Shown here: positions 1 to 26,626 of the stretch, one piece after another
How positions within the stretch are numbered: the first letter of the stretch is position 1
How the letters are laid out: each line of letters starts with the position of its first letter
Virus genome (UHGV): UHGV-0183130
DNA length: 40,647 nt
Origin: a virus
Direction: 5' to 3' (one strand)
Made by a program: the position numbers and the translations under genes
The notes under the pieces: generated by a model
The model's input: the letters and a program-made list of their open reading frames with translations, nothing else
What the model was told of the DNA's origin: nothing
Database searches by the model: none

Positions 1-3000
1 AAATGCAAACTGGCCACTGTCAGCGTAAAATTTGCCATGTAATTCAGCGTTTCCATTTTTATCAATGCGCCAGCCTGTTGAACCCGCTACGAAGTTATTC
101 GACTGGATAAAATCACCAATTTTGGCATTGGTGATACTGCCATTCTGAATAAACGCATCGCTGATAAACACCTGACCATTAACAACAGCAAAGGGTGAAT
201 ATTGCGTATCACCGCTGCCACTCATCAGGACGAACTGATTGGCGTTAAATCCGACACGAGTGACTACCGGCTTACCCGCCTCCGCCAGCACCGCAATCGA
301 CATTCCGGCGTTATACATCACACCGTTAATCCGGACCCCAGTTTTGAGGGTGTAAATCGCAGAGGCTCCGGTAGCATCAACCACGGCAGTAAGCTTGTCC
401 TCCAGTGCGGCAGTTACATTATTGAACTGCGCCTTCACCTGCGTCGACATTTCAGCCATGGCCTTATCGACCTGCGCAATGGTCGTTTTAACCACCAGAA
501 TATCCGCGCGTACCTCGCCGTACTGCGCCCACTGATGTTCCACGGTTGCATGGTTGGCCAGCGCGTTCTGCCATGCGGCTTCGAGGTTGGTATCAATGTC
601 GCCTGTCAGGCGGTCACCGTCTGCAGACGTCAGGAAGTCATCAGCAATATCGCCCAGGTAGTCGTCAGCATTCGCGTTGGATACACCACGAACCCAGTCG
701 GTCCAGCCTGATTCATTACCCGTTCTGTCAACCAGCTGCGCGCGGTACCAGAACTCCTGTCCCGCCTTCAGTCCCAGTTGGGTGTATTCGGCTGACGGAT
801 AAGGCACATCCGACAGCAATAGAGGATTAGAGAAATCACTGTTCGCGGTGTACTGAATTTCCGTTTTCAGCGTATCCCCGGTGTTAGCCGGGAATCCCCA
901 GTTCAGGCGAATCCCCCAGTTGATCGGCGTTGTCGCAAAGCCGACAGGTTTCGGTGGATTTCCCACCTTGCCCGTCAGCGTTTTCTCTTCGGAGTAGCCC
1001 CAGCCAGAGGAAATTTCAGCGGCATTAATGGCACGCACACGCACGAGGTAGCGCCCGGCATAAATACCCGATACATCAAATGAGGTGGTGGAGCTGCGCG
1101 GCACGTTTACCCAGTTACCATCATTGCGGCGCCACTGTGCCTCGTAGGCGATAGCATTCTGCGCCTGGTCCCAGCTCACACGCATGGTTTCGACGCTGAT
1201 ATTCTGCTGCACCACTGAAAACGAGCTGATCACAATGTTAGCCGGCGGCGACTGGTTACCAGGCGGGATTACACTCACGGGCCGCTGGTCAATGATGGCT
1301 CCGGTATCGATACGGGCATATTTATCCGGGTCATGCCATGCGCCGGTAATAGAGAAAGTGCCATCATCATTATCGGAGACGCTGACAACTCGATACTGCT
1401 GGGCGTAGAGTTCATCTGACTCAACCACCCATACAGCTTCGGCCTGTGGTGTCTCACTGTATGCCGTGGTGACTGTGACTGATTCCCCATTAATCGCCTG
1501 AATAGTCCTGCTCTGTGACGCACCGGAGGGAAGATTGATAATAAGGCGATCGCCTGCTGCTGCATCAACTACGCGGTCAAGTTTTATCACGCGACCGTTA
1601 ACAGCACTGATGCGGCCACCCATAACTTTGCCGGACAGAAGCTCGTCTGACACGGCGATGATGTATCCCGGCTGCGGAATGTTTCCGTCCAGGCCAACAT
1701 CAAACGAAACAACACGATCCTTATTGTTGGTGAGAATACCCCAGCGCCCCTTTCGGTTCGCTTCTGATTGACGGGTACAACCGATGGCTGTCATTTCCAG
1801 CTGATTAAATCCGTACCGGGCCACCAGAGGCTGCTCAAATACTGGCTCCATCGCATCCGCATAAGCGTTACCCGGATCAGACCAGGAAACCAGCGCGGTG
1901 GTATACCGCGTTTTTGTCGTGCTGCTGGAATAGGTAAAGCGTCCGTCGATAACGTTAGCGCGGGTGTAAGCGTAATCCACATCTCTCGGCATATCGGCAA
2001 GCGCAACAATCTGATCACCGCCCCAGTACGTCATACCCCGGAATATAGCCGCAAAGTCACGCAGCACAGTGTAAGCGTCATTCCTGTCCTGAACATAGAC
2101 GTTACAGGTATAGCGTGGCTCTGTCCCGCTTCCACCCTTTCCATCCGGTACCGGCTGATCGCAATACTGCGATACCTGGTACAACGTCCATTTATCGATG
2201 TTGGCTGCACTCAGGCGATTACCCAGACCAAAGCGATCGGTAATAACCAGATCGTAAAATATCCACGCCGGGTTATCGGTCCAGGCCCACTTAAACGCGC
2301 CCTGCCATGTACCACTATAAGTCCGCGTATCGGGGTCATAGTTATCAGGCACTCGGATCACCCGGCCACGTGGTTCACAGGATATCTGTGGAATCGAACC
2401 ATTGAACTGACTTGAGTCGAATTCGATGTACAGCAGCGCGGTGTTCGGATAGCGCAACTTGGCATCAATCACCTCCGTGAAGCTTTGCAGCGTCATCGTG
2501 TCGCCGATCTTGGCGCTGTTTGCGTCAGCGTTAATCTTACGCAGTCGGATTGTCCAGGTGCTGCCAGCCTGCGGTAAATCAATACGGTGGCTGCGCTCAT
2601 AACCAGACGTCGTTTTGCCGGTTACGCTGGTATTAAGAACGGTTTGCCAGGTCCCACCATCAGTTTGCAGGTCTATTGCATAATTGATGGAATACCCTAC
2701 CAGATCGCCGTTGTCCTCCTGCTTAAACAGAGAAGGCCATTTCAGTCGCAGGCGAACGGCTGATAGTTGGGTGTTGGTGAAAGTACGCGTCCAGGCTGTT
2801 GCGCTTGATACTTCAGTTCCAACGTTGATTTCGTTTTCGGTACCGGGAATGCCCTGAATGTAATTTTGTGCCTGAGTTCCCGCGCGAAATTCCCACGTCA
2901 CGCCGCTAAAGTTTTTGGTGCCATCGGAGTTTTCCAACGCCGTGCCGTCCAGGTAGATATTTTTTCCGGTTAATTGCCCTGCAAATTCCCCTTCCCCAAG

Positions 3001-3114
3001 CGCAACGAGGATTTTGGCCTTCGCTACAGATTGCAGATCATCAGGCTGTTCGGTAGGGGTTCGTGAACTGGAACTGCCGCCCTTGCGGCCTTTAATCGGG
3101 ATTGCTGTAGCCAT
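1..3114 (-). CDS. J: Tail tip / host specificity protein J (central tail fibre), partial: C-terminal part lies beyond window start
   Basis: Hand translation of minus strand from ATG at 3114 gives an open frame to position 1 (about 1038 codons, no stop), beginning MATAIPIKGRKGGSSSSRTPTEQ and containing blocks resembling lambda gpJ (e.g. YPNTALLYIEFDSSQFNG, TCNVYVQDR). Not in ORF track because it has no in-window stop. Follows I as in lambda. Confidence 0.85.
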   Translation of the reverse strand, partial: MATAIPIKGRKGGSSSSRTPTEQPDDLQSVAKAKILVALGEGEFAGQLTGKNIYLDGTALENSDGTKNFSGVTWEFRAGTQAQNYIQGIPGTENEINVGTEVSSATAWTRTFTNTQLSAVRLRLKWPSLFKQEDNGDLVGYSINYAIDLQTDGGTWQTVLNTSVTGKTTSGYERSHRIDLPQAGSTWTIRLRKINADANSAKIGDTMTLQSFTEVIDAKLRYPNTALLYIEFDSSQFNGSIPQISCEPRGRVIRVPDNYDPDTRTYSGTWQGAFKWAWTDNPAWIFYDLVITDRFGLGNRLSAANIDKWTLYQVSQYCDQPVPDGKGGSGTEPRYTCNVYVQDRNDAYTVLRDFAAIFRGMTYWGGDQIVALADMPRDVDYAYTRANVIDGRFTYSSSTTKTRYTTALVSWSDPGNAYADAMEPVFEQPLVARYGFNQLEMTAIGCTRQSEANRKGRWGILTNNKDRVVSFDVGLDGNIPQPGYIIAVSDELLSGKVMGGRISAVNGRVIKLDRVVDAAAGDRLIINLPSGASQSRTIQAINGESVTVTTAYSETPQAEAVWVVESDELYAQQYRVVSVSDNDDGTFSITGAWHDPDKYARIDTGAIIDQRPVSVIPPGNQSPPANIVISSFSVVQQNISVETMRVSWDQAQNAIAYEAQWRRNDGNWVNVPRSSTTSFDVSGIYAGRYLVRVRAINAAEISSGWGYSEEKTLTGKVGNPPKPVGFATTPINWGIRLNWGFPANTGDTLKTEIQYTANSDFSNPLLLSDVPYPSAEYTQLGLKAGQEFWYRAQLVDRTGNESGWTDWVRGVSNANADDYLGDIADDFLTSADGDRLTGDIDTNLEAAWQNALANHATVEHQWAQYGEVRADILVVKTTIAQVDKAMAEMSTQVKAQFNNVTAALEDKLTAVVDATGASAIYTLKTGVRINGVMYNAGMSIAVLAEAGKPVVTRVGFNANQFVLMSGSGDTQYSPFAVVNGQVFISDAFIQNGSITNAKIGDFIQSNNFVAGSTGWRIDKNGNAELHGKFYADSGQFAF

Positions 3115-3168
3115 ATTGCGCCCATAAAAAAAGCCACCATAAGGTAGCCTGAAAGGAAGATTATTTTG

Positions 3169-3759
3169 TTATTGCTGGTCTTCGACGTATATACCAGCAG
3201 AGATGATCGCCCCGCCAATACGCCTGCGTCCGTATAGAAGCGGAACTGGATTACCCTGAGCAGCAGTGTTAGTTACACCACCGAATGCATACGAAGCCCG
3301 ATTTTCGGCATCCTGTTTGCTGGCAAGTCCTGCTGGCTGTGGCGAAAGCATTTGGATTACGCCTCCAGCCATTAATGCAACACCGGGTGCGACCAATGCC
3401 ATACTTGCACCGCCAGTAAAACCTGACAAAGCGTAGCCAGCTACAACAAGGACGGCACCTAATATGGTTTGTAACAGGCCAGCTTTTTTACTACCAATAA
3501 CTACTGGCACGATCCGGATCACTTCACCTGTCGCCGGAAAGCCTAAATCATCTTCCCCAATATTTTTCTTTCCTCGAAAAACTGCATATGTCAGACCGCG
3601 CTGTTTACTTGAATTCATGAAGGCCTCAAACCCTTTCACTGTTGCAGCTAGCGCTCGACAGGCTTCTCGGGTTGAGCTAATTAAACGATGATGCGTCTTA
3701 CCAAAGGTTTTGCCAAGAATCCCGCTCAGTTCAATTTGGGTCATAACTTCTTGCTGCAT
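3169..3759 (-). CDS. I: Tail assembly protein I
   Basis: C-terminal region (LLQTILGAVLVVAGYALSGFTGG...NPVPLLYGRRRIGGAIISAGIYVEDQQ) matches lambda gpI pattern. Start moved to ATG at 3759 (MQQEVMTQ) preceded by GGAGAAGAG SD. Confidence 0.8.
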   Translation of the reverse strand: MQQEVMTQIELSGILGKTFGKTHHRLISSTREACRALAATVKGFEAFMNSSKQRGLTYAVFRGKKNIGEDDLGFPATGEVIRIVPVVIGSKKAGLLQTILGAVLVVAGYALSGFTGGASMALVAPGVALMAGGVIQMLSPQPAGLASKQDAENRASYAFGGVTNTAAQGNPVPLLYGRRRIGGAIISAGIYVEDQQ

Positions 3760-3770
3760 ACTCTTCTCCA

Positions 3771-3796
3771 ATAAAAAAGCCACCCGGAGGTGGCCA
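3771..3796 (-). terminator. Rho-independent terminator after the lipoprotein gene
   Basis: On minus strand: GCCACC-UCCG-GGUGGC hairpin followed by UUUUUUAU; sits between lipoprotein stop (3815) and I start. Confidence 0.55.
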
Positions 3797-3814
3797 TTTA
3801 TAAAATGACTCGAA

Positions 3815-4240
3815 CTATATGGTTGATGCTCTGATATCAAGTCCGGAATTAGTATCTCCGGTGATGCGGAATTTTTGATGTTCACGAGCATTGATCTGCG
3901 TGGCAGTCTCTTTGAGTGGTTGTCCGACCTGCATTCCACATAATCCTTTACCTTTTGAATCGCCAGATATTCCTAGAATATGTCGGCCGGATGTAACATT
4001 GATATCGATCGTTTCTCCCGTATCAATTCTTGCATAGGATTTTCCATCAATAGTTACTTCTACAAAGCATCCACCACCAGCAAACCATCCTTGATCTCGT
4101 GTAATTGTTATCACCGAGTCACCAGCCCCCTTCAGCAATACACGTTCAGATGGTACTTGTTTTGCAACGGTAGAATTCACCGCCGTGGTTGAACACCCAG
4201 CAACGCTAAGCGCAATTAGAAGCAGCAAAGTCTTTTTCAT
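3815..4240 (-). CDS. Predicted lipoprotein (accessory/moron gene)
   Basis: Start at ATG 4240 gives MKKTLLLLIALSVAGCSTTAV: signal peptide with lipobox VAGC; SD-like GGTGA upstream; own terminator downstream. Confidence 0.6.
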   Translation of the reverse strand: MKKTLLLLIALSVAGCSTTAVNSTVAKQVPSERVLLKGAGDSVITITRDQGWFAGGGCFVEVTIDGKSYARIDTGETIDINVTSGRHILGISGDSKGKGLCGMQVGQPLKETATQINAREHQKFRITGDTNSGLDIRASTI

Positions 4241-4350
4241 ATCCCTATCACCTTTGATTAATTTGCCAAAAGAGTAGCAGGGATCCGGTAACGACAAAAC
4301 CCGCAGTTAAGCGGGTTGGGATAGCAAAAACATTTTAACTGCTTTGAAAT

Positions 4351-18510: not shown

Positions 18511-18713
18511 GCGTAAAATCCTGCCGGTCCCCGGCGTCGTGGAGTGGTGCCAACCTGTGACTCAAGTTCGGCAATGTATTTCTTCAGGTCACTGACTGAA
18601 GTCGCAGTGAACTCAACCCGCCGGCCGTCTTTCTGCACCGTTGCCACCCGCTTTCCCATCATGAGGTCATGCAACGCAGCGCGGGCGGCATCCAGATCAG
18701 TCTGTGTCGCCAT
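18507..18713 (-). CDS. W: Head-tail joining protein W
   Basis: 68 aa; [43 protein letters not shown] is near-identical to remembered lambda gpW. Confidence 0.85.
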
Positions 18714-20635
18714 TATTCATCTCCAGATAATGCCCGGGCATAATCAGCCAGGGTTTTGTTATTGGTCCGGCTCCCCTCTTCCTCCTGCAGGCTCGCGAGC
18801 AGTGAATCAAGATTCAGTTGCCATCGCGAAATACTGATCCGCAGGGCCGCCAGCGCATAAACGAAGCAGTCCAGCGCTTCATTTCGTCGCTTTTTGCTGT
18901 CCCAGACGATTTTCTTACGCCCGTCCACCCATTTTTCAACCTGCTCCTCAGCAGTCAGTTGCTGAGCCTCAGCCAGATCGTAAATTTCGGGGTTATTGGG
19001 AAAATGCACGGCTCCGGCAAGAGGTTCACTCCCTTCCGGCTGAAGTGTGAAGCGGTTATAAATCTGCTCCTTTGCGGTATCAGTCCCCACTTCCGTCAGA
19101 TAAACGCCGTTCTTGTTGCGTTTACGCGGCATATTCGCGACGGGCTTACCGTAAACGGAAGCCCCTTTAATCGGGATCACGCGAAACAGGCCATGCTTTT
19201 TTGAGCGATTGTAGACAATGGTCGGGTCAATACCGCCGATATCCCAGCAGATACGGGATACCGACATTTCCACGCCATTCTTTCGGGAGTAGGTTTTGTT
19301 AATCGCCTCGTCCACCCTGACGAGGGTCGCTTCATCATCATGACGGCCCATAATGATTTGCCGGTCAATCAGCCAGCTTTCCTCTCCGGGTCCCCATCCC
19401 CAGACGCGCATTTCATATCGATCCAGCTGGGAGTCAATCCCGGCTGTCAGATAAGCAACACGATCCGGTACGGATGCCCCGAAAAACTCTTTGCGTTCGG
19501 CCATGAGCTCCGCGTCAGGCCGTTCACCAATTTTAGGCTCCCATGTTTCGCCCAGCGTAGTGTTCACGAAGGTTTTACGCTTTCCGGTATCCCCTTTCGT
19601 TTTTAGCCAGTCTTTGACGATCTGTACCCAGGTGGTAAATGGGCTGTATGCCGTCCAGATGTGAAACGTCACGCTGTCCGGCGGGTCGATTTCTGTGCCT
19701 GTTGATGAAAACCAGGATAAACCATCGCGCGTCCAGATCCCGGTGGTGTCGCAGATGTAACGAGCTTCAGTGAAATCCAGCTCCTGCTGCTTAATGACGC
19801 AGGCATTATGTTCACACAGGTAAAAGACGCTGGAGGGTTCGCCCGGTGTCCATTTGAACCCGAACGGGGTTTCTTTGTCGCCGAACTTAAGGTACTGCTC
19901 TTCACCACAGTGCGGACAGGCAACATGAAAGCGCATGAAATGCCCGGACTCGCTGGCAGCACGCTCAATCTGGCAGGTCCCCTTTGTTTTTGGCGTTGAG
20001 CCACGAATAGATTTAGGCCAGACAGAGCCCTCAATACGTTTATCACCCAGAAACGTCGGGGAACCCTCTTTCTCAATATCCTCATCAAAAGCAGCGAGTT
20101 CGTCATAGCCGGCAACATCCACTGACTTTTCGCGATAGTTTTTCGCCGCCTTACCCCCCAGACACCAGAACCCGCGACCGTTGGAGAAGCGTTTCATACT
20201 GAGCGTATTGTCCCGGTGCTTTTTGCCATACCAGGGGGCCAGCGCCAGAAGTGACGGAATATCACGGATCGTGGGTTCAACATGCGACTTCATGAAGTTT
20301 TCGGCGTCACCATCCGTGGGCAGCCAGATAAGGGAATTTCGCTGCTTGTGCTGTATAAAATACGCATAAACACCCAGCAACATTTTTGAATAGCCAACAC
20401 GGGCAGACTTAACAACGTTAACTTCACGAATGTAGTCGTTACCCATCGCATTCATGATCGCGCGCTGAAATGGCAATGTTTCCCAGCGCCCTTCCTGGTA
20501 GGCCGACTCTTTGGGGAGATAGTAATTATCGTCTGCCCATTCAACCGCCGTTTGCGGCTCAGGTCGGTACAGCGAAAGTAGACCCGCGCGCGCAGAGTGC
20601 TGCAGCCCCTTAACCTGACTGTTCGATATATTCAC
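18713..20635 (-). CDS. A: Terminase large subunit A
   Basis: 640 aa starting MNISNSQV (GTG start overlapping Nu1, as in lambda); extensive near-identity to lambda gpA blocks. Confidence 0.9.
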
Positions 20636-21155
20636 TCAGCAACCCCGGTATTATTTCATCCAGCGCAGCTGCTTTGTTCATGGCTTTAATGATGTCCTTC
20701 TTGAGGAAATCAATATGTCGGTTTTCCAGCTCCGGGAAGCGCCGCTGAACAGACAGAGCAACTCCATCAAGAATGCTGGCTACTTCTCCGGCCATCCGCG
20801 ACAGCACGAACGTGCAGAATGCGGTTTCCACCACCTCAGCGGAATCTTTTGCATTTTTTAGTTCCTGGGCGTCAGCCTGTGCCCGGGTGAGGCGATGACG
20901 CTCATAGTCAATCGTACCAGGCTGAAGGTCGGATTCCGATGCAAGACGAAGGTCTTCCACCTCCTTCCGTAATTTCTCATTCTCAATCGCCGCGTCGCGT
21001 GCGGAATACCATTCAATAGCCGCGGAAGATTCATAGAGGACCTCATTACCTTTTCCGCCGCCACGTGCTACAGGCATTCCCTGATCCTGCCAGTTCTGAA
21101 TGGTTCGCACGCTGACCCCAAATATTTCAGAAAGACGCTTTTTGTTGACCTCCAT
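20610..21155 (-). CDS. Nu1: Terminase small subunit Nu1
   Basis: 181 aa MEVNKKRLSEIFGVSVRTIQNWQDQGMPV..., close to lambda Nu1 along its length. Confidence 0.9.
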   Translation of the reverse strand: MEVNKKRLSEIFGVSVRTIQNWQDQGMPVARGGGKGNEVLYESSAAIEWYSARDAAIENEKLRKEVEDLRLASESDLQPGTIDYERHRLTRAQADAQELKNAKDSAEVVETAFCTFVLSRMAGEVASILDGVALSVQRRFPELENRHIDFLKKDIIKAMNKAAALDEIIPGLLSEYIEQSG

Positions 21156-21159
21156 AGCT

Positions 21160-21400
21160 CACTCCATGCACAAAAACAGAGAAAGGAAACGCCCTCTGGC
21201 TATTTAGCCGTTTTTAAGGCTTATCATTTCCTTTCTTTTCAGGGGGTGTTTACAGTTAAAACAATGAATTAGCGAGAAGAAGAACGGAAACGGCAAATGC
21301 CTGAAAATTTTCATAAATAGCGAGAATCTGCGCGGTCGCCGCCCCGTAACGGAGCGGATCGCTGGAAAGGACCCGCAAACGATAATAAATATCAATTTCA
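21160..21400. other. cos site (cosB - cosN - cosQ), lambda type
   Basis: Reverse complement of 21300-21344 reads GGGCGGCGACCGCGCAGATTCTCGCTATTTATGAAAATTTTCAG, close to the lambda left end; 12-nt cohesive-end equivalent at 21333-21344; cosB-like sequence toward Nu1 and cosQ-like GCGGGTCCTTTCC...GTTACG on the other side. Confidence 0.8.
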
Positions 21401-21496
21401 CAATTCGATTTATAAGCTATCCCTATAATGATTCTCTTAGCGTATGCACAATTAAATGGGCACATCACATTTAGTGCCCTTAGGTTTTCTTCTAGA

Positions 21497-22000
21497 TTAC
21501 TTTGCTTTAAGAACGCTTTTTGATTCTTTAACTAAATCTTCCAGAAGTTTATTTGTCAACGATAAGAGATGTTCTTCAGCATCATCTGTATCTAACCCCT
21601 GAAAATTAACTTCATAGTCAACCTTATCTTCTCGTTTCAAATAATCAGTTAGAAGTTTTGATACTGATTCAGTAACCAGCAAGGGGCCGATATTGCTATA
21701 TTTTACTATTAAATCTTTTGCCTCAGCAGCTGAGATTTGTAATTTACTAAGTTTCTCAGCACTCAATTTGATAAAGTTTGGATATTCATCTGGACCTAAT
21801 CGTTGATACTCTTTCAAATCAGAATAATAATCTTGTAGAACCTTTACCTGATAAATTGCATTAGTTAATTCAATAAGGGCCCCTGCTCTCTTCTCCCACC
21901 ACTTTTCACTATAAAAACGTTTTAAAGCAAATAACATTGCAATCCATGCACCAAGTCCACCCGCTACTACAGAGATCACTAATTGGTAAATATAATTCAT
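21497..22000 (-). CDS. Hypothetical membrane-anchored protein, AT-rich cargo gene
   Basis: 167 aa, N-terminal hydrophobic helix IYQLVISVVAGGLGAWIAMLFAL then a charged helical region; SD GAGG before ATG; local GC roughly 35-38 percent versus about 52 percent in phage core. Confidence 0.5.
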   Translation of the reverse strand: MNYIYQLVISVVAGGLGAWIAMLFALKRFYSEKWWEKRAGALIELTNAIYQVKVLQDYYSDLKEYQRLGPDEYPNFIKLSAEKLSKLQISAAEAKDLIVKYSNIGPLLVTESVSKLLTDYLKREDKVDYEVNFQGLDTDDAEEHLLSLTNKLLEDLVKESKSVLKAK

Positions 22001-22420
22001 GATAGCCTCGCATATTTATACTGTGACTATTCTGCATGATTTTGACTAATCAGTACATATCAACCATTCTTTCCGGATGACCGCGCTAATGATATCGAGA
22101 CAATCCCTACAGATTAGTCTGCTCCCTATGGAATTTTTCTCTTCCACATTTCCTTCAGTACAGGGGGAGTTATTGTGCATTATCTCAGGCGCTCAGTGAA
22201 TGCCTCTGTAATGGCAGCCTGTGTAACAAACAACCTACCGTTCAATGGCTGAGCGACCTGCTATCACGATGGCAGTCATCATGGAAAAACCCCATATTTT
22301 CTATAATTAATAAGAAAATCATGACATAAGTCATTGAAATACTGATTGCTCATTGTAACTTGGATTTATCTCCCCACTTCCCTATTGCGCTATTGTTGGC
22401 GTAATTAGGAGAAGCTATAA

Positions 22421-22846
22421 ATGACTGGTAAAACAATTAATCTGCAATTTGATGGGTATTGGCGTGAAGCCAATAAGAGTGGCGTTCCAGATCAGTCAGG
22501 AATCTACTGCGTATACGCATGCAAAGCTGTTACTAATGGCTCCAAGACAACACTCGAAATTCGTAAGTTGATTTATATCGGCGAATCATCGAACGTCCGA
22601 TCCCGTGTGGCCACGCACGACAGGCTGGGTGACTGGAATGAACATTTAATGGTCGGTGAGACTCTCTGCTATTCCGTCGCTACTATTACTGGAAAAGATG
22701 ATCGGGTGCGCGCAGAAGCTGCATTGATTAACAAAATGACTCCCCCTGCAAATAGCGAGTATACGGGTGAATTCCCTTACAACGAAACCACTGTTAACTG
22801 CTCTGGGGAAACTTCGCATTTGCTTTCCACATTAACCGTTGGTTAA
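22421..22846 (+). CDS. Putative GIY-YIG-like nuclease domain protein
   Basis: 141 aa; SGIYCVY ... KLIYIGESSNVRSRVATH ... RVRAEAALINKMTPPAN fits GIY / YIG / Arg / Glu / Asn motif order, though the GIY-YIG spacing is longer than canonical. Opposite strand to flanking late genes. Confidence 0.45.
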   Translation: MTGKTINLQFDGYWREANKSGVPDQSGIYCVYACKAVTNGSKTTLEIRKLIYIGESSNVRSRVATHDRLGDWNEHLMVGETLCYSVATITGKDDRVRAEAALINKMTPPANSEYTGEFPYNETTVNCSGETSHLLSTLTVG

Positions 22847-22880
22847 CTCTTTAAAATGGCTGGCTAAGTCTAGCGGCCAT

Positions 22881-23042
22881 TCACTTCAAACATTGCTGCC
22901 TGATGTAATCCTGTAAGTAACTCACTTGCCCGGTGATGGTGCTGATTCGCTCTCTGAGGGTGAAATAATCCCGTTTAGCGGCGTCAGTAAGTCGGGGGCT
23001 ATTGCCATCATCCTTACCGATGATATTGTCTGTTTCACTCAC
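22881..23042 (-). pseudogene. Remnant of an Rz (i-spanin) 3' end
   Basis: In-frame minus translation [43 protein letters not shown] matches the Rz C-terminus; about 54 bp at 22945-22998 is a near-repeat of 24061-24114 inside the intact Rz; no N-terminal part. Confidence 0.55.
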
Positions 23043-23165
23043 TCAGTAGTTAGTATGGTTCTGCATTGTCCCTTCACTAATGTCGTGCTGCGATGTAATT
23101 TCACGGAGGGCCATCACTCCGGCACAGTACGCCGCCCCGATGACCTCCCAGTCCGGCTTGCTCAT
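23043..23165 (-). CDS. Small ORF (40 aa) with HTH-like sequence resembling terminase small-subunit N-termini; possibly a gene remnant
   Basis: MSKPDWEVIGAAYCAGVMALREITSQHDISEGTMQNHTNY; AGGA-type SD upstream; ends with stop directly followed in frame by the Rz remnant. Confidence 0.3.
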   Translation of the reverse strand: MSKPDWEVIGAAYCAGVMALREITSQHDISEGTMQNHTNY

Positions 23166-23251
23166 GCTTCTTTCCTATTAAAGTAATCCCATTGATGACC
23201 TATGGTAAGACGGAAGTAAACCTGTCATCTATGCTACCGAGGAGATTCTCG

Positions 23252-23440
23252 ATGGACGAAACAATTACTGAAAATGCTATTAAGCAAGCATATAGCGTTA
23301 CCATCATGCAGCTTTTTAATGTCTATCTAAATTCAGCAAACGATCCCAACGCATCAGCAAGATTTCAGGAAGGGCTTCGTCTTGCGATACAAGTCCGAGA
23401 TGCCTGCTTGCAAATCGCCTCCCAAAACCATGCGCCATGA
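23252..23440 (+). CDS. Hypothetical small protein (AT-rich cargo)
   Basis: ATG with GAGGAG SD; 62 aa; first of three tandem same-strand small ORFs; 4-nt overlap with next ORF. Confidence 0.3.
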   Translation: MDETITENAIKQAYSVTIMQLFNVYLNSANDPNASARFQEGLRLAIQVRDACLQIASQNHAP

Positions 23441-23685
23441 ATTCATTAGCGGCCTATTCAAAAACTACCATTACGATGGGTCTGCCCATGGTTATGGCAA
23501 CGCAGAAAGGTAATAGAATAAGAGTTAATCCCCTGACCTTACCAAACCAGCGGCCCACCCTAATTAGCTCGATTACTTTGAATACAACTTTTGTGTTTAG
23601 GCAACCTCAAAAATCATACAAACATATCACCCACGCTGATAAAAAAACAATCCAAAATAAAATCTCATTTACATCACTGGAGTAA
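23437..23685 (+). CDS. Hypothetical small protein (AT-rich cargo)
   Basis: 82 aa ORF overlapping the previous stop (ATGA); no recognisable family. Confidence 0.25.
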   Translation: MNSLAAYSKTTITMGLPMVMATQKGNRIRVNPLTLPNQRPTLISSITLNTTFVFRQPQKSYKHITHADKKTIQNKISFTSLE

Positions 23686-23690
23686 CAACC

Positions 23691-23936
23691 ATGCCTAACT
23701 GTGAACTTTTAACCGAAACCGGCGTTGATAACTTTGCCATTGTTATCAAATTTCTATCAGAAAACAACCTTATAGATGAAGCAGTTAATTATTTAAAAAA
23801 CAATGGCCATACAAATATTAGAGTCAGCATCGAAGCTGTTGAAGACATACAGAAATTCTTATCCGAAAAATATCCATCATCCTCATCAAGCAAAGCTGAT
23901 GCCATAATTAATTGCAGTCATAGCCATTGCAGTTAA
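23691..23936 (+). CDS. Hypothetical small protein (AT-rich cargo)
   Basis: 81 aa ORF with GGAG SD; acidic, Ser-rich C-terminus; no recognisable family. Confidence 0.3.
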   Translation: MPNCELLTETGVDNFAIVIKFLSENNLIDEAVNYLKNNGHTNIRVSIEAVEDIQKFLSEKYPSSSSSKADAIINCSHSHCS

Positions 23937-23996
23937 TTACTAACGCTATGCCAACTAATATTGAATAACTAATCAGACAGCGAAATAGGTGACAAG

Positions 23997-24461
23997 TCAT
24001 TTTAAATTCTGCGCACTGACATATTCTTGTAATCCGGCAAGTTGCTTGGTGACAGTTTCTATTCGCTCTCTGAGAGTGAAATAATCCCGTTGAGCGGTGT
24101 CAGTAAGTCTGGGGCCGGTTGCATCATCCATGCTGGCGGTGTCGGTGGTTTGACGCACTTTATTGCAGGCGGCTGCAACGCGCAGCTGCTTGCGCCCAGA
24201 CTCAACATCGCCACGTAGACCGCTAATGGTGTTTTTCGCATCAGCTAACTCCTTCGTATATTTGGCATCCAGTGCAGCGACATCGCGCTGGCGGGTTTGC
24301 ATGTCGGTGATAGTAACGTTAGCTAGGCTGAGCTTTTCAGTTGCTTTGTTGCGTTGGTCTTTGTAGGTGATCGCGTTGTCGCGGTAGTGGTTAACGGCCC
24401 AGCCTAGAGATAAGATTATGCAGATGATCACAGTAATGATGATGTTTGTTAGTCGACTCAC
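23997..24461 (-). CDS. Rz: Spanin inner-membrane subunit Rz
   Basis: 154 aa; [16 protein letters not shown]...[20 protein letters not shown] parallels lambda Rz; GTG start overlapping endolysin stop. Confidence 0.85.
24059..24241 (-). CDS. Rz1: Spanin outer-membrane lipoprotein Rz1, embedded in Rz in +1 frame
   Basis: 60 aa with signal peptide and lipobox (LGASSC), proline-rich [17 protein letters not shown] and C-terminal TPLNGIIS, as in lambda Rz1. Confidence 0.75.
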
Positions 24462-25915: not shown

Positions 25916-26605
25916 TCACATTTCTGCCACTTTGAGGGCTTCTTCTTCCTCATAGTATTCAAGAGCCATTGCCAACGCAGATTCATCAAGCTGGGTAAAA
26001 GCGGCCTTTAACCCAGCCCAGTGCCATGAATAGACACGCAACCATGTCGAACGGTCAACGCTAACCATGCGGGCCAACGCTGCACCAGCATAGTCTTTAT
26101 AGGTTTCATTATTTCTGTTTGCGGCAATTTCCTGCCCTGCCAGCCATACCAGACCTATCAGTTTCTTTACTACACGCTCCTGAAGCGAGTTTTCACCCAG
26201 GCATTTCTGATAAGTTTTCCAGACGTATTCACACATCATCACCTGGTGCTTATAGCTAAGGTCAAAACCGTAGCAGTACCGCAACCAGGCCTGCTGGTAT
26301 CCACTAAGCGCGGACACTGCCCTACGCCACGGCGCGGACTCAAATTCCGCATCTTTTATCGGCGGCATTGGCCTGCGGCGGCTGCGTGTTTCCAGCACAT
26401 ACAGTGGCGCGGAAAGCGAGTTAACAAAGCGTGGCCCCTTCTCTCCTTCGAGTTCGACGAGATGAATTCCACGGCGCGGGGTGGCATTTTTGTCTGCTGG
26501 TGGGTGTTCACTGAAAGCCTCAAGCTGCCCTTTTGTTCCCCCAGAGAGGTCAGGTAGCGCGCGGCGCAATTCTATTCTTACAAAATTCAGGTCTTGTTGA
26601 TTCAT
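25916..26605 (-). CDS. Putative late-gene antiterminator (Q-like, QuuQ-type), assigned mainly by position
   Basis: About 229 aa from ATG 26605; sits between the DUF968-like gene and the lysis cassette, matching the ydfU - quuQ - holin order recalled from E. coli Qin prophage; not similar to lambda Q itself. Confidence 0.45.
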   Translation of the reverse strand: MNQQDLNFVRIELRRALPDLSGGTKGQLEAFSEHPPADKNATPRRGIHLVELEGEKGPRFVNSLSAPLYVLETRSRRRPMPPIKDAEFESAPWRRAVSALSGYQQAWLRYCYGFDLSYKHQVMMCEYVWKTYQKCLGENSLQERVVKKLIGLVWLAGQEIAANRNNETYKDYAGAALARMVSVDRSTWLRVYSWHWAGLKAAFTQLDESALAMALEYYEEEEALKVAEM

Positions 26606-26626
26606 GCTTCTTTGCGCTCCATACAC

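What the first reader, a model, noticed from the sequence alone, without database searches (positions are those of the whole stretch)
22881..23165. Recombination scar: second Rz 3' end fused behind a 40-aa HTH-like ORF
A near-repeat of the last ~54 bp of Rz (22945-22998 versus 24061-24114) lies about 1 kb from the intact gene. Its in-frame upstream extension encodes an Rz-like C-terminus whose ending (QQCLK) is closer to lambda Rz (EQCR) than to the resident Rz (AQNLK). It is immediately preceded, across a stop codon, by a short ORF resembling a terminase small-subunit N-terminus. This marks a mosaic joint where a different lysis/packaging module was replaced.
Basis: seen in the sequence. Interest (0 to 1): 0.5.

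Follow-up and report, generated by a model that had tools for sequence, protein, structure and literature searches.

The report
Old phage recombination scar: terS stub joined to Rz tail
This stretch is a dead junction left when the first 32 codons of one phage's small terminase gene were joined to the last third of another phage's Rz lysis gene; the scar itself is ordinary, but its terminase-side break sits in a 12-base hot spot shared by many independent broken prophages, which may mark where that terminase cuts DNA.

Summary
22945-22998 matches 24061-24114 at 50/54 bases. The 53-codon frame is an Rz C-terminus (Pfam PF03245, E=1.6e-14). The 40-aa ORF is the N-terminus of an HK639/KO-TP1-type small terminase (phrog_1206, E=1.2e-11).

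Anatomy on the minus strand:
- terS codons 1-32 (23165-23070)
- a 26-nt filler of unknown origin (23069-23044)
- a TGA at the joint
- Rz codons ~102-154 (23043-22881)

The order is terS then Rz, the reverse of the natural gene order. It is therefore an illegitimate join, not a remnant of neighbouring genes.

The joint was not made in this phage. The same filler and joint occur in at least 26 samples, as 8 sequence variants, behind 4 different upstream and in front of 3 different downstream neighbourhoods. The flanks have been reassorted by homologous recombination inside the two gene remnants. Both remnants behave as pseudogenes. The Rz piece carries frameshifts or stops in every variant except that of the window and L022. 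The terS stub has pN/pS near 1, against 0-0.12 in working alleles.

One result was unexpected. At least 17 other independent chimeras break terS within codons 33-36, mostly joined to downstream late genes. That suggests a terminase cut site there; this is inferred, not shown.

The parts
23070..23165 (-). terS' stub: codons 1-32 of an HK639/KO-TP1-type small terminase gene (start ATG at 23165-23163). Residues 18-32 cover the first helix and the turn of the HTH; the recognition helix is cut.
   Evidence: phrog_1206 positions 4-39/207, E=1.2e-11. tblastn to terS starts in 34 phage records. The DNA alignment to four working alleles is clear up to nt ~95. In variant L036 the stub is 31/32 identical to canonical terS, and the next 8 residues are 0/8 identical. 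The HTH maps to residues 18-40 in full-length terS.
23166..23180 (-). Native terS ribosome-binding region (AGGAAAGAAGC before the ATG). An RBS (GGA/GGAG before the ATG) is present in most variants that have other upstream neighbours.
   Evidence: Alignments: apart from the RBS, similarity between variants with different upstream contexts begins at the ATG.
23044..23069 (-). 26-nt filler ACAATGCAGAACCATACTAACTACTG of unknown origin. It encodes TMQNHTNY and supplies the first two bases of the stop codon.
   Evidence: Unique in the window even with 3 mismatches allowed. 96-100% identical in every pair of the six variants compared, and all 8 variants carry it. Matches neither terS nor Rz alleles.
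23043..23045 (-). TGA stop that ends the 40-aa ORF, lying exactly at the filler/Rz junction.
   Evidence: Rz homology (A GTG xGT xAA AC) begins at 23043.
22881..23043 (-). 'Rz remnant: codons ~102-154 of an Rz i-spanin gene, including its stop codon. It has no N-terminal transmembrane segment, and no ribosome-binding site is apparent upstream of its GTG start.
   Evidence: PF03245 positions 85-125/126, E=1.6e-14. phrog_13 positions 110-154/154. 89.9% identical to Klebsiella phage ST147-VIM1phi7.2 Rz over 99 nt. In the other 6 variants the frame is broken by indels or a stop.
22945..22998 (.). 54-bp core where the Rz and Rz1 reading frames overlap. It is the most conserved part of the repeat and a site of later crossovers.
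   Evidence: 50/54 identical to 24061-24114. Segment identities switch partner at or after this core.
22922..23038 (-). Rz1-frame remnant (38-aa ORF). It keeps only the C-terminal [18 protein letters not shown] and has no signal peptide or lipobox cysteine.
   Evidence: PF06085 positions 20-41/41, 25.4 bits, which is below the curated cut-off of 27.9. Compare the resident Rz1 sequence.
23997..24461 (-). Resident, intact Rz (154 aa) with embedded Rz1 (24059-24241). This is the working spanin pair of this phage.
   Evidence: PF03245 over 1-124/126, E=1.4e-41. PF06085 over 1-41/41, E=1.1e-17.
23166..23996 (+). Upstream neighbour 'X': small plus-strand ORFs (81 aa at 23691-23936; 82 aa at 23437-23685; 62 aa at 23252-23440) lying between Rz and the scar.
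   Evidence: X is also found joined to other cargo, in L005-L009.
21401..22880 (.). Downstream neighbour 'Y': a GIY-YIG-like 141-aa ORF (22421-22846, +) and a 167-aa ORF (21497-22000, -). Y travels with the scar in two phage backgrounds.
   Evidence: Window 21277-23501 is 99.1% identical in L022/25/26/28, which carry a different spanin and a P27-type terminase.
20610..21155 (-). Nu1, the small terminase this phage actually uses, followed by gpA (18713-20635).
   Evidence: PF07471 over 1-164/164, E=1.7e-92. The gpA, W and portal genes are called.

Best explanation
This is a non-functional scar of one old illegitimate recombination event. It lies in the late operon of a lambda-like Citrobacter freundii prophage, between the lysis cassette and the Nu1/A packaging genes.

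A DNA end broken at about nt 96 of an HK639/KO-TP1-type terS gene was joined to a DNA end broken at about codon 102 of an Rz gene. 26 nt of filler were inserted, and a TGA arose at the joint. The product is a 40-codon terS stub with its own RBS, followed by an untranslatable Rz/Rz1 tail.

The scar then spread. Its left half is still homologous to terS genes and its right half to Rz genes, especially the 54-bp Rz/Rz1 dual-coding core. Ordinary homologous or homeologous recombination with other phages has therefore repeatedly swapped what lies upstream and downstream, while the scar-specific centre was carried along unchanged. In the window, the Rz tail and the GIY-YIG/167-aa cargo behind it are one such import.

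Shown:
- the anatomy of the scar;
- its single origin;
- the reassortment of its flanks;
- pseudogene-like evolution of both halves.

Inferred:
- end joining as the mechanism;
- absence of any function.
For: Anatomy.

Natural gene order. In intact relatives the order is Rz, then roughly 0.4-1.0 kb, then terS and terL. The scar has the reverse order.

Single origin. The filler and joint sequence are shared by 8 variants from at least 26 samples in NCBI, ENA, JGI, Logan and IMG/VR. The filler is 96-100% identical in all pairs compared.

Reassortment.
- There are four upstream classes and three downstream classes.
- All of X-GIY (window), X-164aa (L037), 145aa-164aa (L044) and 145aa-Rha (L036) exist.
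- Identity of terS nt 1-96 tracks the upstream class.
- Identity of the Rz tail tracks the downstream class.
- L041 has the core of one class and the tail of another.

Decay.
- The Rz frame is interrupted in L036, L037/38, L041, L042 and L044.
- Close stub variants differ by 5 non-synonymous and 0 synonymous changes (window versus L037).
- Two other close pairs give 8:2 and 7:2, so pN/pS is about 0.9-1.0. Working terS alleles give 0-0.12, and all four are identical in residues 4-41.
- The stub ends inside the HTH recognition helix; the HTH spans residues 18-40.

Other checks. There is no Rfam match and no promoter or terminator signal above shuffled controls.

A second stub. L005/6/8/9 keep X but carry a different, shorter terS stub (~14 codons) followed by other cargo.
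Against: The 40-aa ORF is open, keeps the same length and keeps an RBS in all 8 variants. Its last 12 codons are almost invariant. That could mean selection, although the variants found by protein search were ascertained as intact ORFs, and the invariant part has no homologous partner elsewhere to recombine with.

The origin of the 26-nt filler is unknown. No parental phage with a full-length Rz of this exact allele followed by the Y cargo was found; Y has no match in the phage or complete E. coli collections.

The persistence of 290 bp of junk in at least 6 backgrounds is explained only by hitch-hiking and flank homology. That is plausible but untested.
Confidence: 0.75

Rival explanations
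1. The scar has the same anatomy, but the terS-side break was not random. It marks the site where the HK639/KO-TP1-type terminase cuts DNA to start packaging (a pac or cos cleavage site inside the part of terS that encodes its DNA-binding domain). On this view the scar is a fossil of a terminase-made DNA end that was joined to other DNA. This refines the best explanation rather than excluding it.
For: Break positions.
- HMMER against 1.84 billion representatives returned 14 other chimeric clusters that follow canonical terS and then break after residue 33 (6 clusters), 34 (3), 35 (4) or 36 (1). Only 4 break between codons 37 and 100.
- A separate DNA-pattern census of 137 loci found 4 truncated copies. 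Three of them (L079, L143, L170) break at nt 100-106.
- The window scar breaks at nt 96-101.

Break partners. The in-frame partners include late genes on the same strand that lie downstream of terS in the usual phage gene order: terL (inferred from the sequence match to the ST101 terL), major head protein, a virion structural protein, tail assembly chaperone, central tail fibre J and a tail protein. L079 is a terS-to-J deletion.

Reality of the chimeras. Several are in isolate genomes: P0022 is on 14 contigs, P0025 on 6, P0037 is on a 4.9-Mb K. pneumoniae contig with a RefSeq protein accession, and L170 is Enterobacter vonholyi.

Not a domain border. The break lies inside the HTH (residues 18-40).

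Synonymous diversity. It is low at codons 1-20, dips at 30-36 (GAA GGN GCT ATC CGY AAG), and is lowest at 49-70. There, three GTACGC repeats use invariant CGC and the codon GTA in 75-76 of 78 sequences. From codon 78 onward it rises to 0.7-0.8.

Precedents. SPP1 pac overlaps the gene 1 DNA-binding-domain coding sequence, with a precise cut in pacC between the pacL and pacR binding sites (PMC6316719). The P22 pac site lies in terS (PMC11260489). Packaging can start in situ from prophage pac sites (PMC8575938).
Against: No physical end data exist for any phage of this terS family; the SEN34 paper states that its packaging sequences were not identified (PMC5261728).

Low synonymous diversity at the 5' end could instead reflect recent spread of a shared segment.

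The representative library under-samples chimeras with late breaks, and cannot detect breaks before about codon 25. Indeed a second class of stub breaks at nt ~40 (BL21, L008).

Many chimeras are single Logan contigs and could be misassemblies.

It is unclear why the unpackaged end should be preserved to within 12 nt.
Confidence: 0.4
2. The 40-aa ORF is a working small gene: a truncated HTH peptide expressed late from the native terS RBS. It might interfere with the terminase or pac recognition of competing HK639-type phages, or regulate something. On this view the scar is retained by selection.
For: The ORF is intact, with the same length and stop, in all 8 variants. An RBS is present in most upstream contexts. 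The last 12 codons are nearly invariant. One source names a variant 'helix-turn-helix, Psq domain'.
Against: Among closely related stubs pN/pS is about 1, with radical changes (Y13C/H, R14C/W, S19F/A, E10G) at residues that are invariant in working terS. The recognition helix is replaced by filler-encoded residues. The invariance of the 3' part extends equally into the untranslated Rz linker, so it is a property of the DNA and not of the ORF. Four of the variants were found by protein search, which can only return open frames.
Confidence: 0.08
3. A local tandem duplication of this phage's own Rz 3' end, followed by divergence.
For: It is a direct repeat 1116 bp from the intact gene, on the same strand.
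Against: The fragment is 75% identical to the resident Rz over 118 nt, but about 90% identical over 99 nt to a Klebsiella-phage allele, and its tail is of a different allelic type. The same scar occurs in phages whose spanin gene has no Pfam Rz hit on record and no blastn match to the resident Rz (L022/25/26/28). It is fused to a terS fragment, which a local duplication cannot produce.
Confidence: 0.02
4. An assembly chimera in the source contig.
For: Short conserved repeats can mislead assemblers.
Against: The window-type scar variant is found in 21 of the sources held here, and 3.6 kb around it is 97.6-100% identical in 17 loci fetched from NCBI, ENA and Logan assemblies.
Confidence: 0.01

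Closest known systems
'Novel joints' left by illegitimate recombination in lambdoid phage genomes (Juhala, Hendrix and colleagues on HK97/HK022; cited from my own knowledge, and as refs 7-8 of PMC2327257)
   Same: Homology is lost abruptly on both sides. The join is between sequences that are not neighbours in any working phage. It lies at a module boundary (lysis/packaging). The leftover gene fragments are tolerated because they disrupt nothing essential.
   Different: Here the joint falls inside two genes rather than at gene borders, carries a 26-nt filler, and can be shown to be a single event later distributed to at least 6 phage backgrounds.
Homeologous recombination at short conserved sequences as a driver of phage mosaicism (Martinsohn, Radman and Petit 2008, PMC2327257; De Paepe et al. 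2014, PMC3945230)
   Same: The scar's two halves (terS nt 1-96; the Rz/Rz1 core and tail) show the pattern of high-identity patches flanked by intermediate-identity 'shoulders'. Their partner allele changes with the neighbouring module.
   Different: The homologous patches here are dead gene fragments acting as passive recombination substrates, not working genes or dedicated linker sequences. No recombinase dependence was tested.
pac sites inside small-terminase genes: SPP1 pacL-pacC-pacR over the gene 1 DNA-binding-domain coding region (PMC6316719); P22 pac in terS (PMC11260489)
   Same: The break hot spot (terS nt ~96-108) lies in the sequence encoding the HTH. On both sides it is flanked by stretches with unusually low synonymous diversity, one of them holding three GTACGC repeats.
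   Different: No physical ends, binding or cleavage have been measured for this terS family. The link between deletion or fusion junctions and terminase cutting is my inference.
PHROG 2934, a 63-residue phage protein family of 'unknown function'
   Same: The window's 53-aa fragment and the C-terminus of the resident Rz both match it end to end (E=1.9e-16 and 2.7e-23). This suggests the family collects Rz C-terminal remnants like this one. Other short Rz C-terminal ORFs with unrelated N-terminal extensions were found in Enterobacter and Klebsiella.
   Different: Those other remnants have different upstream junctions (for example a tail-tube N-terminus in P0010). They are separate events, not copies of this scar.

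Membership tests
Rz i-spanin (Pfam PF03245 / phrog_13) | Full periplasmic coiled-coil domain matched over the whole model | tested here: not met
   Only model positions 85-125 of 126 are present. The resident Rz matches 1-124.
Rz i-spanin (Pfam PF03245 / phrog_13) | N-terminal transmembrane anchor and a usable translation start | tested here: not met
   The frame opens with GTG directly after the TGA of the stub, and I see no Shine-Dalgarno sequence upstream of it. The 53 residues contain no hydrophobic segment.
Rz i-spanin (Pfam PF03245 / phrog_13) | Embedded Rz1 o-spanin with signal peptide and lipobox cysteine | tested here: not met
   The Rz1-frame ORF matches only positions 20-41/41 at 25.4 bits, below the cut-off of 27.9, and has no lipobox.
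Rz i-spanin (Pfam PF03245 / phrog_13) | Reading frame conserved among relatives | tested here: not met
   Indels or an in-frame stop break the frame in 6 of 8 scar variants.
Small terminase, HK639/KO-TP1 type (phrog_1206) | Complete N-terminal HTH DNA-binding motif (residues 18-40) | tested here: not met
   Homology stops after residue 32. The recognition helix is replaced by the filler-encoded TMQNHTNY.
Small terminase, HK639/KO-TP1 type (phrog_1206) | Central oligomerisation and TerL-binding region (about 160 further residues) | tested here: not met
   The ORF is 40 aa. Only profile positions 4-39 of 207 are matched.
Small terminase, HK639/KO-TP1 type (phrog_1206) | Directly followed by its cognate terL | tested here: not met
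   It is followed by an Rz remnant and cargo genes. The phage's terminase is Nu1/gpA. Intact relatives have terS-terL adjacent.
Small terminase, HK639/KO-TP1 type (phrog_1206) | Purifying selection on the N-terminal residues | tested here: not met
   pN/pS is about 0.9-1.0 (or 5 non-synonymous to 0 synonymous changes) among close stub variants, against 0-0.12 in working alleles.
Illegitimate-recombination scar (mosaic 'novel joint') | Two flanks homologous to genes that are not adjacent, or are in the wrong order, in working genomes | tested here: met
   The scar has terS 5' end then Rz 3' end. The natural order is Rz ... terS.
Illegitimate-recombination scar (mosaic 'novel joint') | Sharp loss of homology at the joint, without a shared homologous stretch between the partners | tested here: met
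   terS homology ends at about 23070 and Rz homology starts at 23043, with 26 nt between them that match neither.
Illegitimate-recombination scar (mosaic 'novel joint') | Single origin: an identical joint wherever it occurs | tested here: met
   All 8 variants carry the filler, which is 96-100% identical in every pair of the six variants compared.
Terminase cleavage site (pac or cos) | Physical DNA ends of virion or packaging-series DNA at the site | not testable with these tools
   No end data were found. The packaging sequences of SEN34 are reported as not identified (PMC5261728).
Terminase cleavage site (pac or cos) | DNA-level constraint beyond the coding constraint at and around the site | tested here: inconclusive
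   Synonymous diversity dips at codons 30-36 and is very low at 1-20 and 49-70, against 0.7-0.8 after codon 78. Recent spread of the 5' segment would look similar.
Terminase cleavage site (pac or cos) | Repeated TerS-binding motifs flanking the cut | tested here: inconclusive
   Three GTACGC repeats lie at codons 59-69 with invariant codon choice. Binding was not tested.

The most novel reading that the evidence does not exclude
The terS-side break of this scar, and of at least 17 other independent terS chimeras and prophage deletions, marks the packaging-initiation cut site of the HK639/KO-TP1-type terminase. That site would be a 12-nt window inside the HTH-coding part of terS, flanked by SPP1-like binding regions. 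If so, terminase-made ends are a recurrent source of both phage mosaic joints and one-sided prophage deletions. Such scars could then be used to map pac or cos cleavage sites from genome data alone.
Probability: 0.4. Interest if true: 0.6.

Novelty: new member of a known kind. Interest (0 to 1): 0.4.

Why it matters
The scar in itself is a textbook product of phage mosaicism and has no likely function, so annotators should not call its two ORFs 'lysis protein' or an 'HTH protein'.

Two things make it more useful than most scars. First, it is a well-resolved natural example of both proposed mosaicism mechanisms acting in sequence. One illegitimate join was made. Homologous recombination through the two dead gene halves then repeatedly reassorted its neighbours, and every recombinant class is observed.

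Second, its terS breakpoint coincides with a sharp hot spot of independent breakpoints in this terminase family. If that hot spot is the terminase cut site, it links DNA packaging to the origin of mosaic joints and to the directional decay of prophages. It would also offer a sequence-only way of locating packaging sites for a phage group in which none has been mapped.

Tried and rejected
(1) A parental phage with a full-length Rz of the fragment's allele followed by the GIY-YIG/167-aa cargo. The cargo region 21400-22945 has no match in the phage collection or in complete E. coli genomes. Every context of the exact 141-aa and 167-aa proteins already contains the scar.

(2) A parental phage with X followed by a full terS. 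None was found. Contexts of the 81-aa X protein gave only the scar or a shorter stub.

(3) The joint pattern in one genome per species: no hit. The filler pattern in the metagenome collection returned only two contigs already known, and in IMG/VR three.

(4) A templated origin of the filler from elsewhere in the window: no second copy with up to 3 mismatches.

(5) The idea that TMQNHTNY is a diverged terS AIRKRAK. It looked possible from codon-wise similarity. I rejected it because variant L036 is 31/32 canonical up to residue 32 and 0/8 after it.

(6) The idea that the 185-aa gene after the short stub in L008 was a full terS. It is a predicted membrane protein.

(7) A domain-boundary explanation for the hot spot. 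Rejected because the break lies inside the HTH (residues 18-40), while the working-gene module boundary is near codon 39.

(8) A known RNA family, promoter or terminator in the region: none found.

(10) Literature searches found no description of this scar, and no mapped packaging site for this terS family.

Full report
**Setting.** The window is a lambda-like prophage. One source names the exact 53-aa fragment as a Citrobacter freundii protein. On the minus strand the late genes run in this order:
- an antiterminator gene (25916-26626; its counterpart in related loci hits Pfam Phage_antiter_Q), holin, lysozyme
- Rz (23997-24461) with embedded Rz1 (24059-24241)
- about 2.8 kb of small ORFs
- Nu1 (20610-21155), gpA, W and the portal gene

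The finding lies inside that 2.8-kb gap.

**Observation.** The repeat is real.
- 22945-22998 versus 24061-24114 is 50/54 identical.
- In-register similarity extends from the stop codon at 22881 to 23043.
- blastn scores 69 nt at 87% with E=2.5e-17.

The 53-codon frame is an Rz C-terminus (PF03245 positions 85-125/126, E=1.6e-14). The overlapping frame keeps the Rz1 C-terminus, at 25.4 bits, just under that family's curated cut-off.

The 40-aa ORF (23043-23165) lies in the same frame, separated by one TGA. It is the N-terminus of a small terminase of the HK639/SEN34/KO-TP1 type:
- phrog_1206 positions 4-39/207, E=1.2e-11
- its residues 1-35 align at or near the start of annotated terS genes, and 34 of 35 phage records cover at least 80% of the query
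- 82-85% DNA identity to the starts of those genes

**Exact anatomy.** On the terS side, four working alleles align cleanly up to about nt 95. The decisive evidence comes from other copies of the stub. In L036 the first 32 residues are 31/32 canonical and the next eight (TMQNHTNY) are 0/8. The terS part therefore ends after codon 32, at window position ~23070.

On the Rz side, alignment to the resident gene begins at 23043 (A GTG xGT xAA AC). The 26 nt between (23044-23069) match neither gene and occur nowhere else in the window. The TGA that closes the ORF straddles the filler/Rz junction.

In intact relatives the order is holin, lysin, Rz or spanin, roughly 0.4-1.0 kb, terS, terL. The scar has the reverse order, terS' then 'Rz. 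It cannot be a decayed neighbourhood. It must be a join of two broken genes. That join could have been between two phages, or across nearly a whole genome length in a concatemer or tandem prophage.

**The scar is older than this phage.**
- 3.6 kb around the window-type scar is 97.6-100% identical in 17 fetched loci.
- The block 21277-23501 is 99.1% identical in phages with a different spanin gene and a P27-type HNH/terminase module (L022/25/26/28).
- 40-aa ORF variants at 83-88% identity, all ending ISEGTMQNHTNY*, occur in further backgrounds that use Terminase_2-type packaging genes.

In total the filler is found in 8 sequence variants from at least 26 samples. A segment-by-segment comparison is the key result:
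- The filler is 96-100% identical in every pair.
- Upstream sequence falls into four unrelated classes, and downstream sequence into three.
- terS nt 1-96 tracks the upstream class (93-94% within a class, 81-90% between).
- The Rz tail tracks the downstream class (87-98% within a class, 57-60% for the window against all others).
- L041 combines the core of one class with the tail of another.
- All four combinations of two upstream and two downstream classes exist.

This fits one founding joint followed by repeated crossovers inside the two gene remnants. Each remnant is still homologous to widespread working genes. The 54-bp Rz/Rz1 dual-coding core is the best-conserved piece of the repeat (92.6% identical between the scar and the resident gene). 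That behaviour matches the homeologous-recombination model of phage mosaicism (PMC2327257).

**Is either half functional?** The Rz remnant is not. It lacks the membrane anchor and a ribosome-binding site, and the Rz1 frame lacks its lipobox. In six of eight variants its frame is broken by indels or a stop. The window's copy looks intact only because its tail is a recent import from a working allele, about 90% identical to Klebsiella phage ST147-VIM1phi7.2.

The stub keeps its native RBS and is open in all eight variants. Several observations nevertheless argue against function:
- It ends inside the HTH recognition helix; the HTH spans residues 18-40.
- Among closely related copies the changes are mostly non-synonymous and radical: 5:0, 8:2 and 7:2, giving pN/pS ≈ 0.9-1.0.
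- Working alleles have pN/pS of 0-0.12, and the four compared are identical in residues 4-41.
- The near-invariance of its last codons continues into the untranslated Rz linker, so it is a feature of the scar DNA and not of the ORF.
- No Rfam family, promoter or terminator signal stands out.

I conclude that it is a dead scar, with about 0.75 confidence.

**An unexpected pattern.** I searched the stub against 1.84 billion representative proteins. This returned 14 further clusters that begin with canonical terS and then switch to unrelated sequence after residue 33 (6 clusters), 34 (3), 35 (4) or 36 (1). Only four break between codons 37 and 100.

Where the partner is in frame, it is in most cases a late gene on the same strand: major head protein, a virion structural protein, tail assembly chaperone, central tail fibre J and a tail protein. 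The partner of P0023 matches part of the ST101 terL sequence. Several chimeras are in isolate genomes.

An independent DNA-pattern census covered 120 IMG/VR loci and 17 species genomes. It found four truncated copies, and three of them break at nt 100-106. One of these, L079, is a terS-to-J deletion. The window scar breaks at nt 96-101. So at least 18 independent events fall in a 12-nt window inside the HTH-coding sequence.

Synonymous diversity across 78 working alleles shows this profile:
- low at codons 1-20
- a dip at codons 30-36
- lowest at codons 49-70, where three GTACGC repeats use invariant codons
- 0.7-0.8 from codon 78 onward

This resembles SPP1, where pac overlaps the coding sequence of the TerS DNA-binding domain and a precise cut in pacC is flanked by the pacL and pacR binding sites (PMC6316719). 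It also resembles P22, whose pac site lies in terS (PMC11260489). Packaging can begin in situ on prophages (PMC8575938).

My inference, at about 0.4 probability, is that the hot spot is the terminase cut site and that such ends seed both mosaic joints and one-sided prophage deletions.

Caveats:
- No physical end data exist for this family.
- The representative library under-samples late breaks and cannot detect very early ones.
- A second stub class breaks at nt ~40 (BL21 and L008).
- Low 5' diversity could instead reflect recent spread of that segment.
- Some chimeras are single-contig observations.

**Verdict.** The scar is a new, well-documented member of a known kind (mosaic joints) and has no likely function. 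The breakpoint hot spot is the part worth following up.

Noticed in passing
terS genes of loci L047-L185 (codons 59-69, nt 175-207 of terS); not in the window: There are three GTACGC repeats (GTA CGC AAA CAG GAG GTA CGC AAA CAG GTA CGC). CGC is used in 78/78 sequences at each of three Arg codons and GTA in 75-76/78 at each of three Val codons, whereas other Arg codons in the same gene vary freely. This is a candidate TerS-binding or pac element.
   Followed up: partly
L168 (E. coli BL21, NZ_CP010816.1 751344-751383) and L008 4430-4470: A second class of terS stub keeps only about 13-14 codons and breaks at nt ~40. It is followed by unrelated cargo in the two cases (a 182-aa protein versus a 185-aa membrane protein). 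Matches confined to the first 40 nt of terS were common among the 219 complete E. coli genomes with any match. This may be a second break site.
   Followed up: partly
L167 (E. coli CE0021a) 3501-4250: This is a working-looking 249-aa terS next to a Terminase_3-type terL. It shares only the first ~116 nt (the HTH module, 77% identity) with the HK639-type terS. The N-terminal DNA-binding module is therefore itself shuffled between terS families at about codon 39.
   Followed up: partly
window 21277-21400: This 124-bp segment upstream of Nu1 is shared at 85-96% by phages with lambda-type and with P27-type packaging modules. It acts as the left homologous flank for exchange of the cargo region. 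In E. coli genomes the overlapping stretch is annotated 'Fur-regulated protein'.
   Followed up: no
window 22421-22846 (+) and 21497-22000 (-): The cargo behind the scar is a weakly GIY-YIG-like 141-aa ORF (PF01541, E=0.0019, below cut-off) and a 167-aa protein of phrog_17948 (unknown function). The region has no DNA match in the phage collection or in complete E. coli genomes.
   Followed up: partly
L005, L006, L008 and L009, about 2830-4310: At the same position there is an alternative cargo cassette: a 185-aa predicted membrane protein (-), a 204-aa protein (+) and a 63/76-aa ORF, none with a Pfam hit on record. These are possibly moron or defence genes.
   Followed up: no
proteins P0003-P0014 and phrog_2934: Many other short Rz C-terminal ORFs (50-88 aa) occur in Enterobacter and Klebsiella. 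Their unrelated N-terminal extensions all join just upstream of PRLTDSAERDYF. One is fused to a tail-tube N-terminus (P0010), and some are Rz1-to-Rz frame fusions (P0004, P0006). Rz 3' remnants are a recurrent class.
   Followed up: partly
L001 3460-3648 and L002 2111-2269 (Klebsiella phages ST101-KPC2phi6.1 and ST147-VIM1phi7.2): Both phages carry an ORF annotated 'Rz1 lytic protein' (…PFTWQASLELNAKLYS…), 0.4-0.7 kb downstream of the intact Rz/Rz1 pair. This looks like another kind of spanin remnant at the lysis/packaging boundary.
   Followed up: no
window 23997-24461: The resident Rz ends in AQNLK and lacks the Cys near the C-terminus that is present in the scar fragment (QQCLK) and in the ST147-type Rz (MQCSRR).
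   Followed up: no
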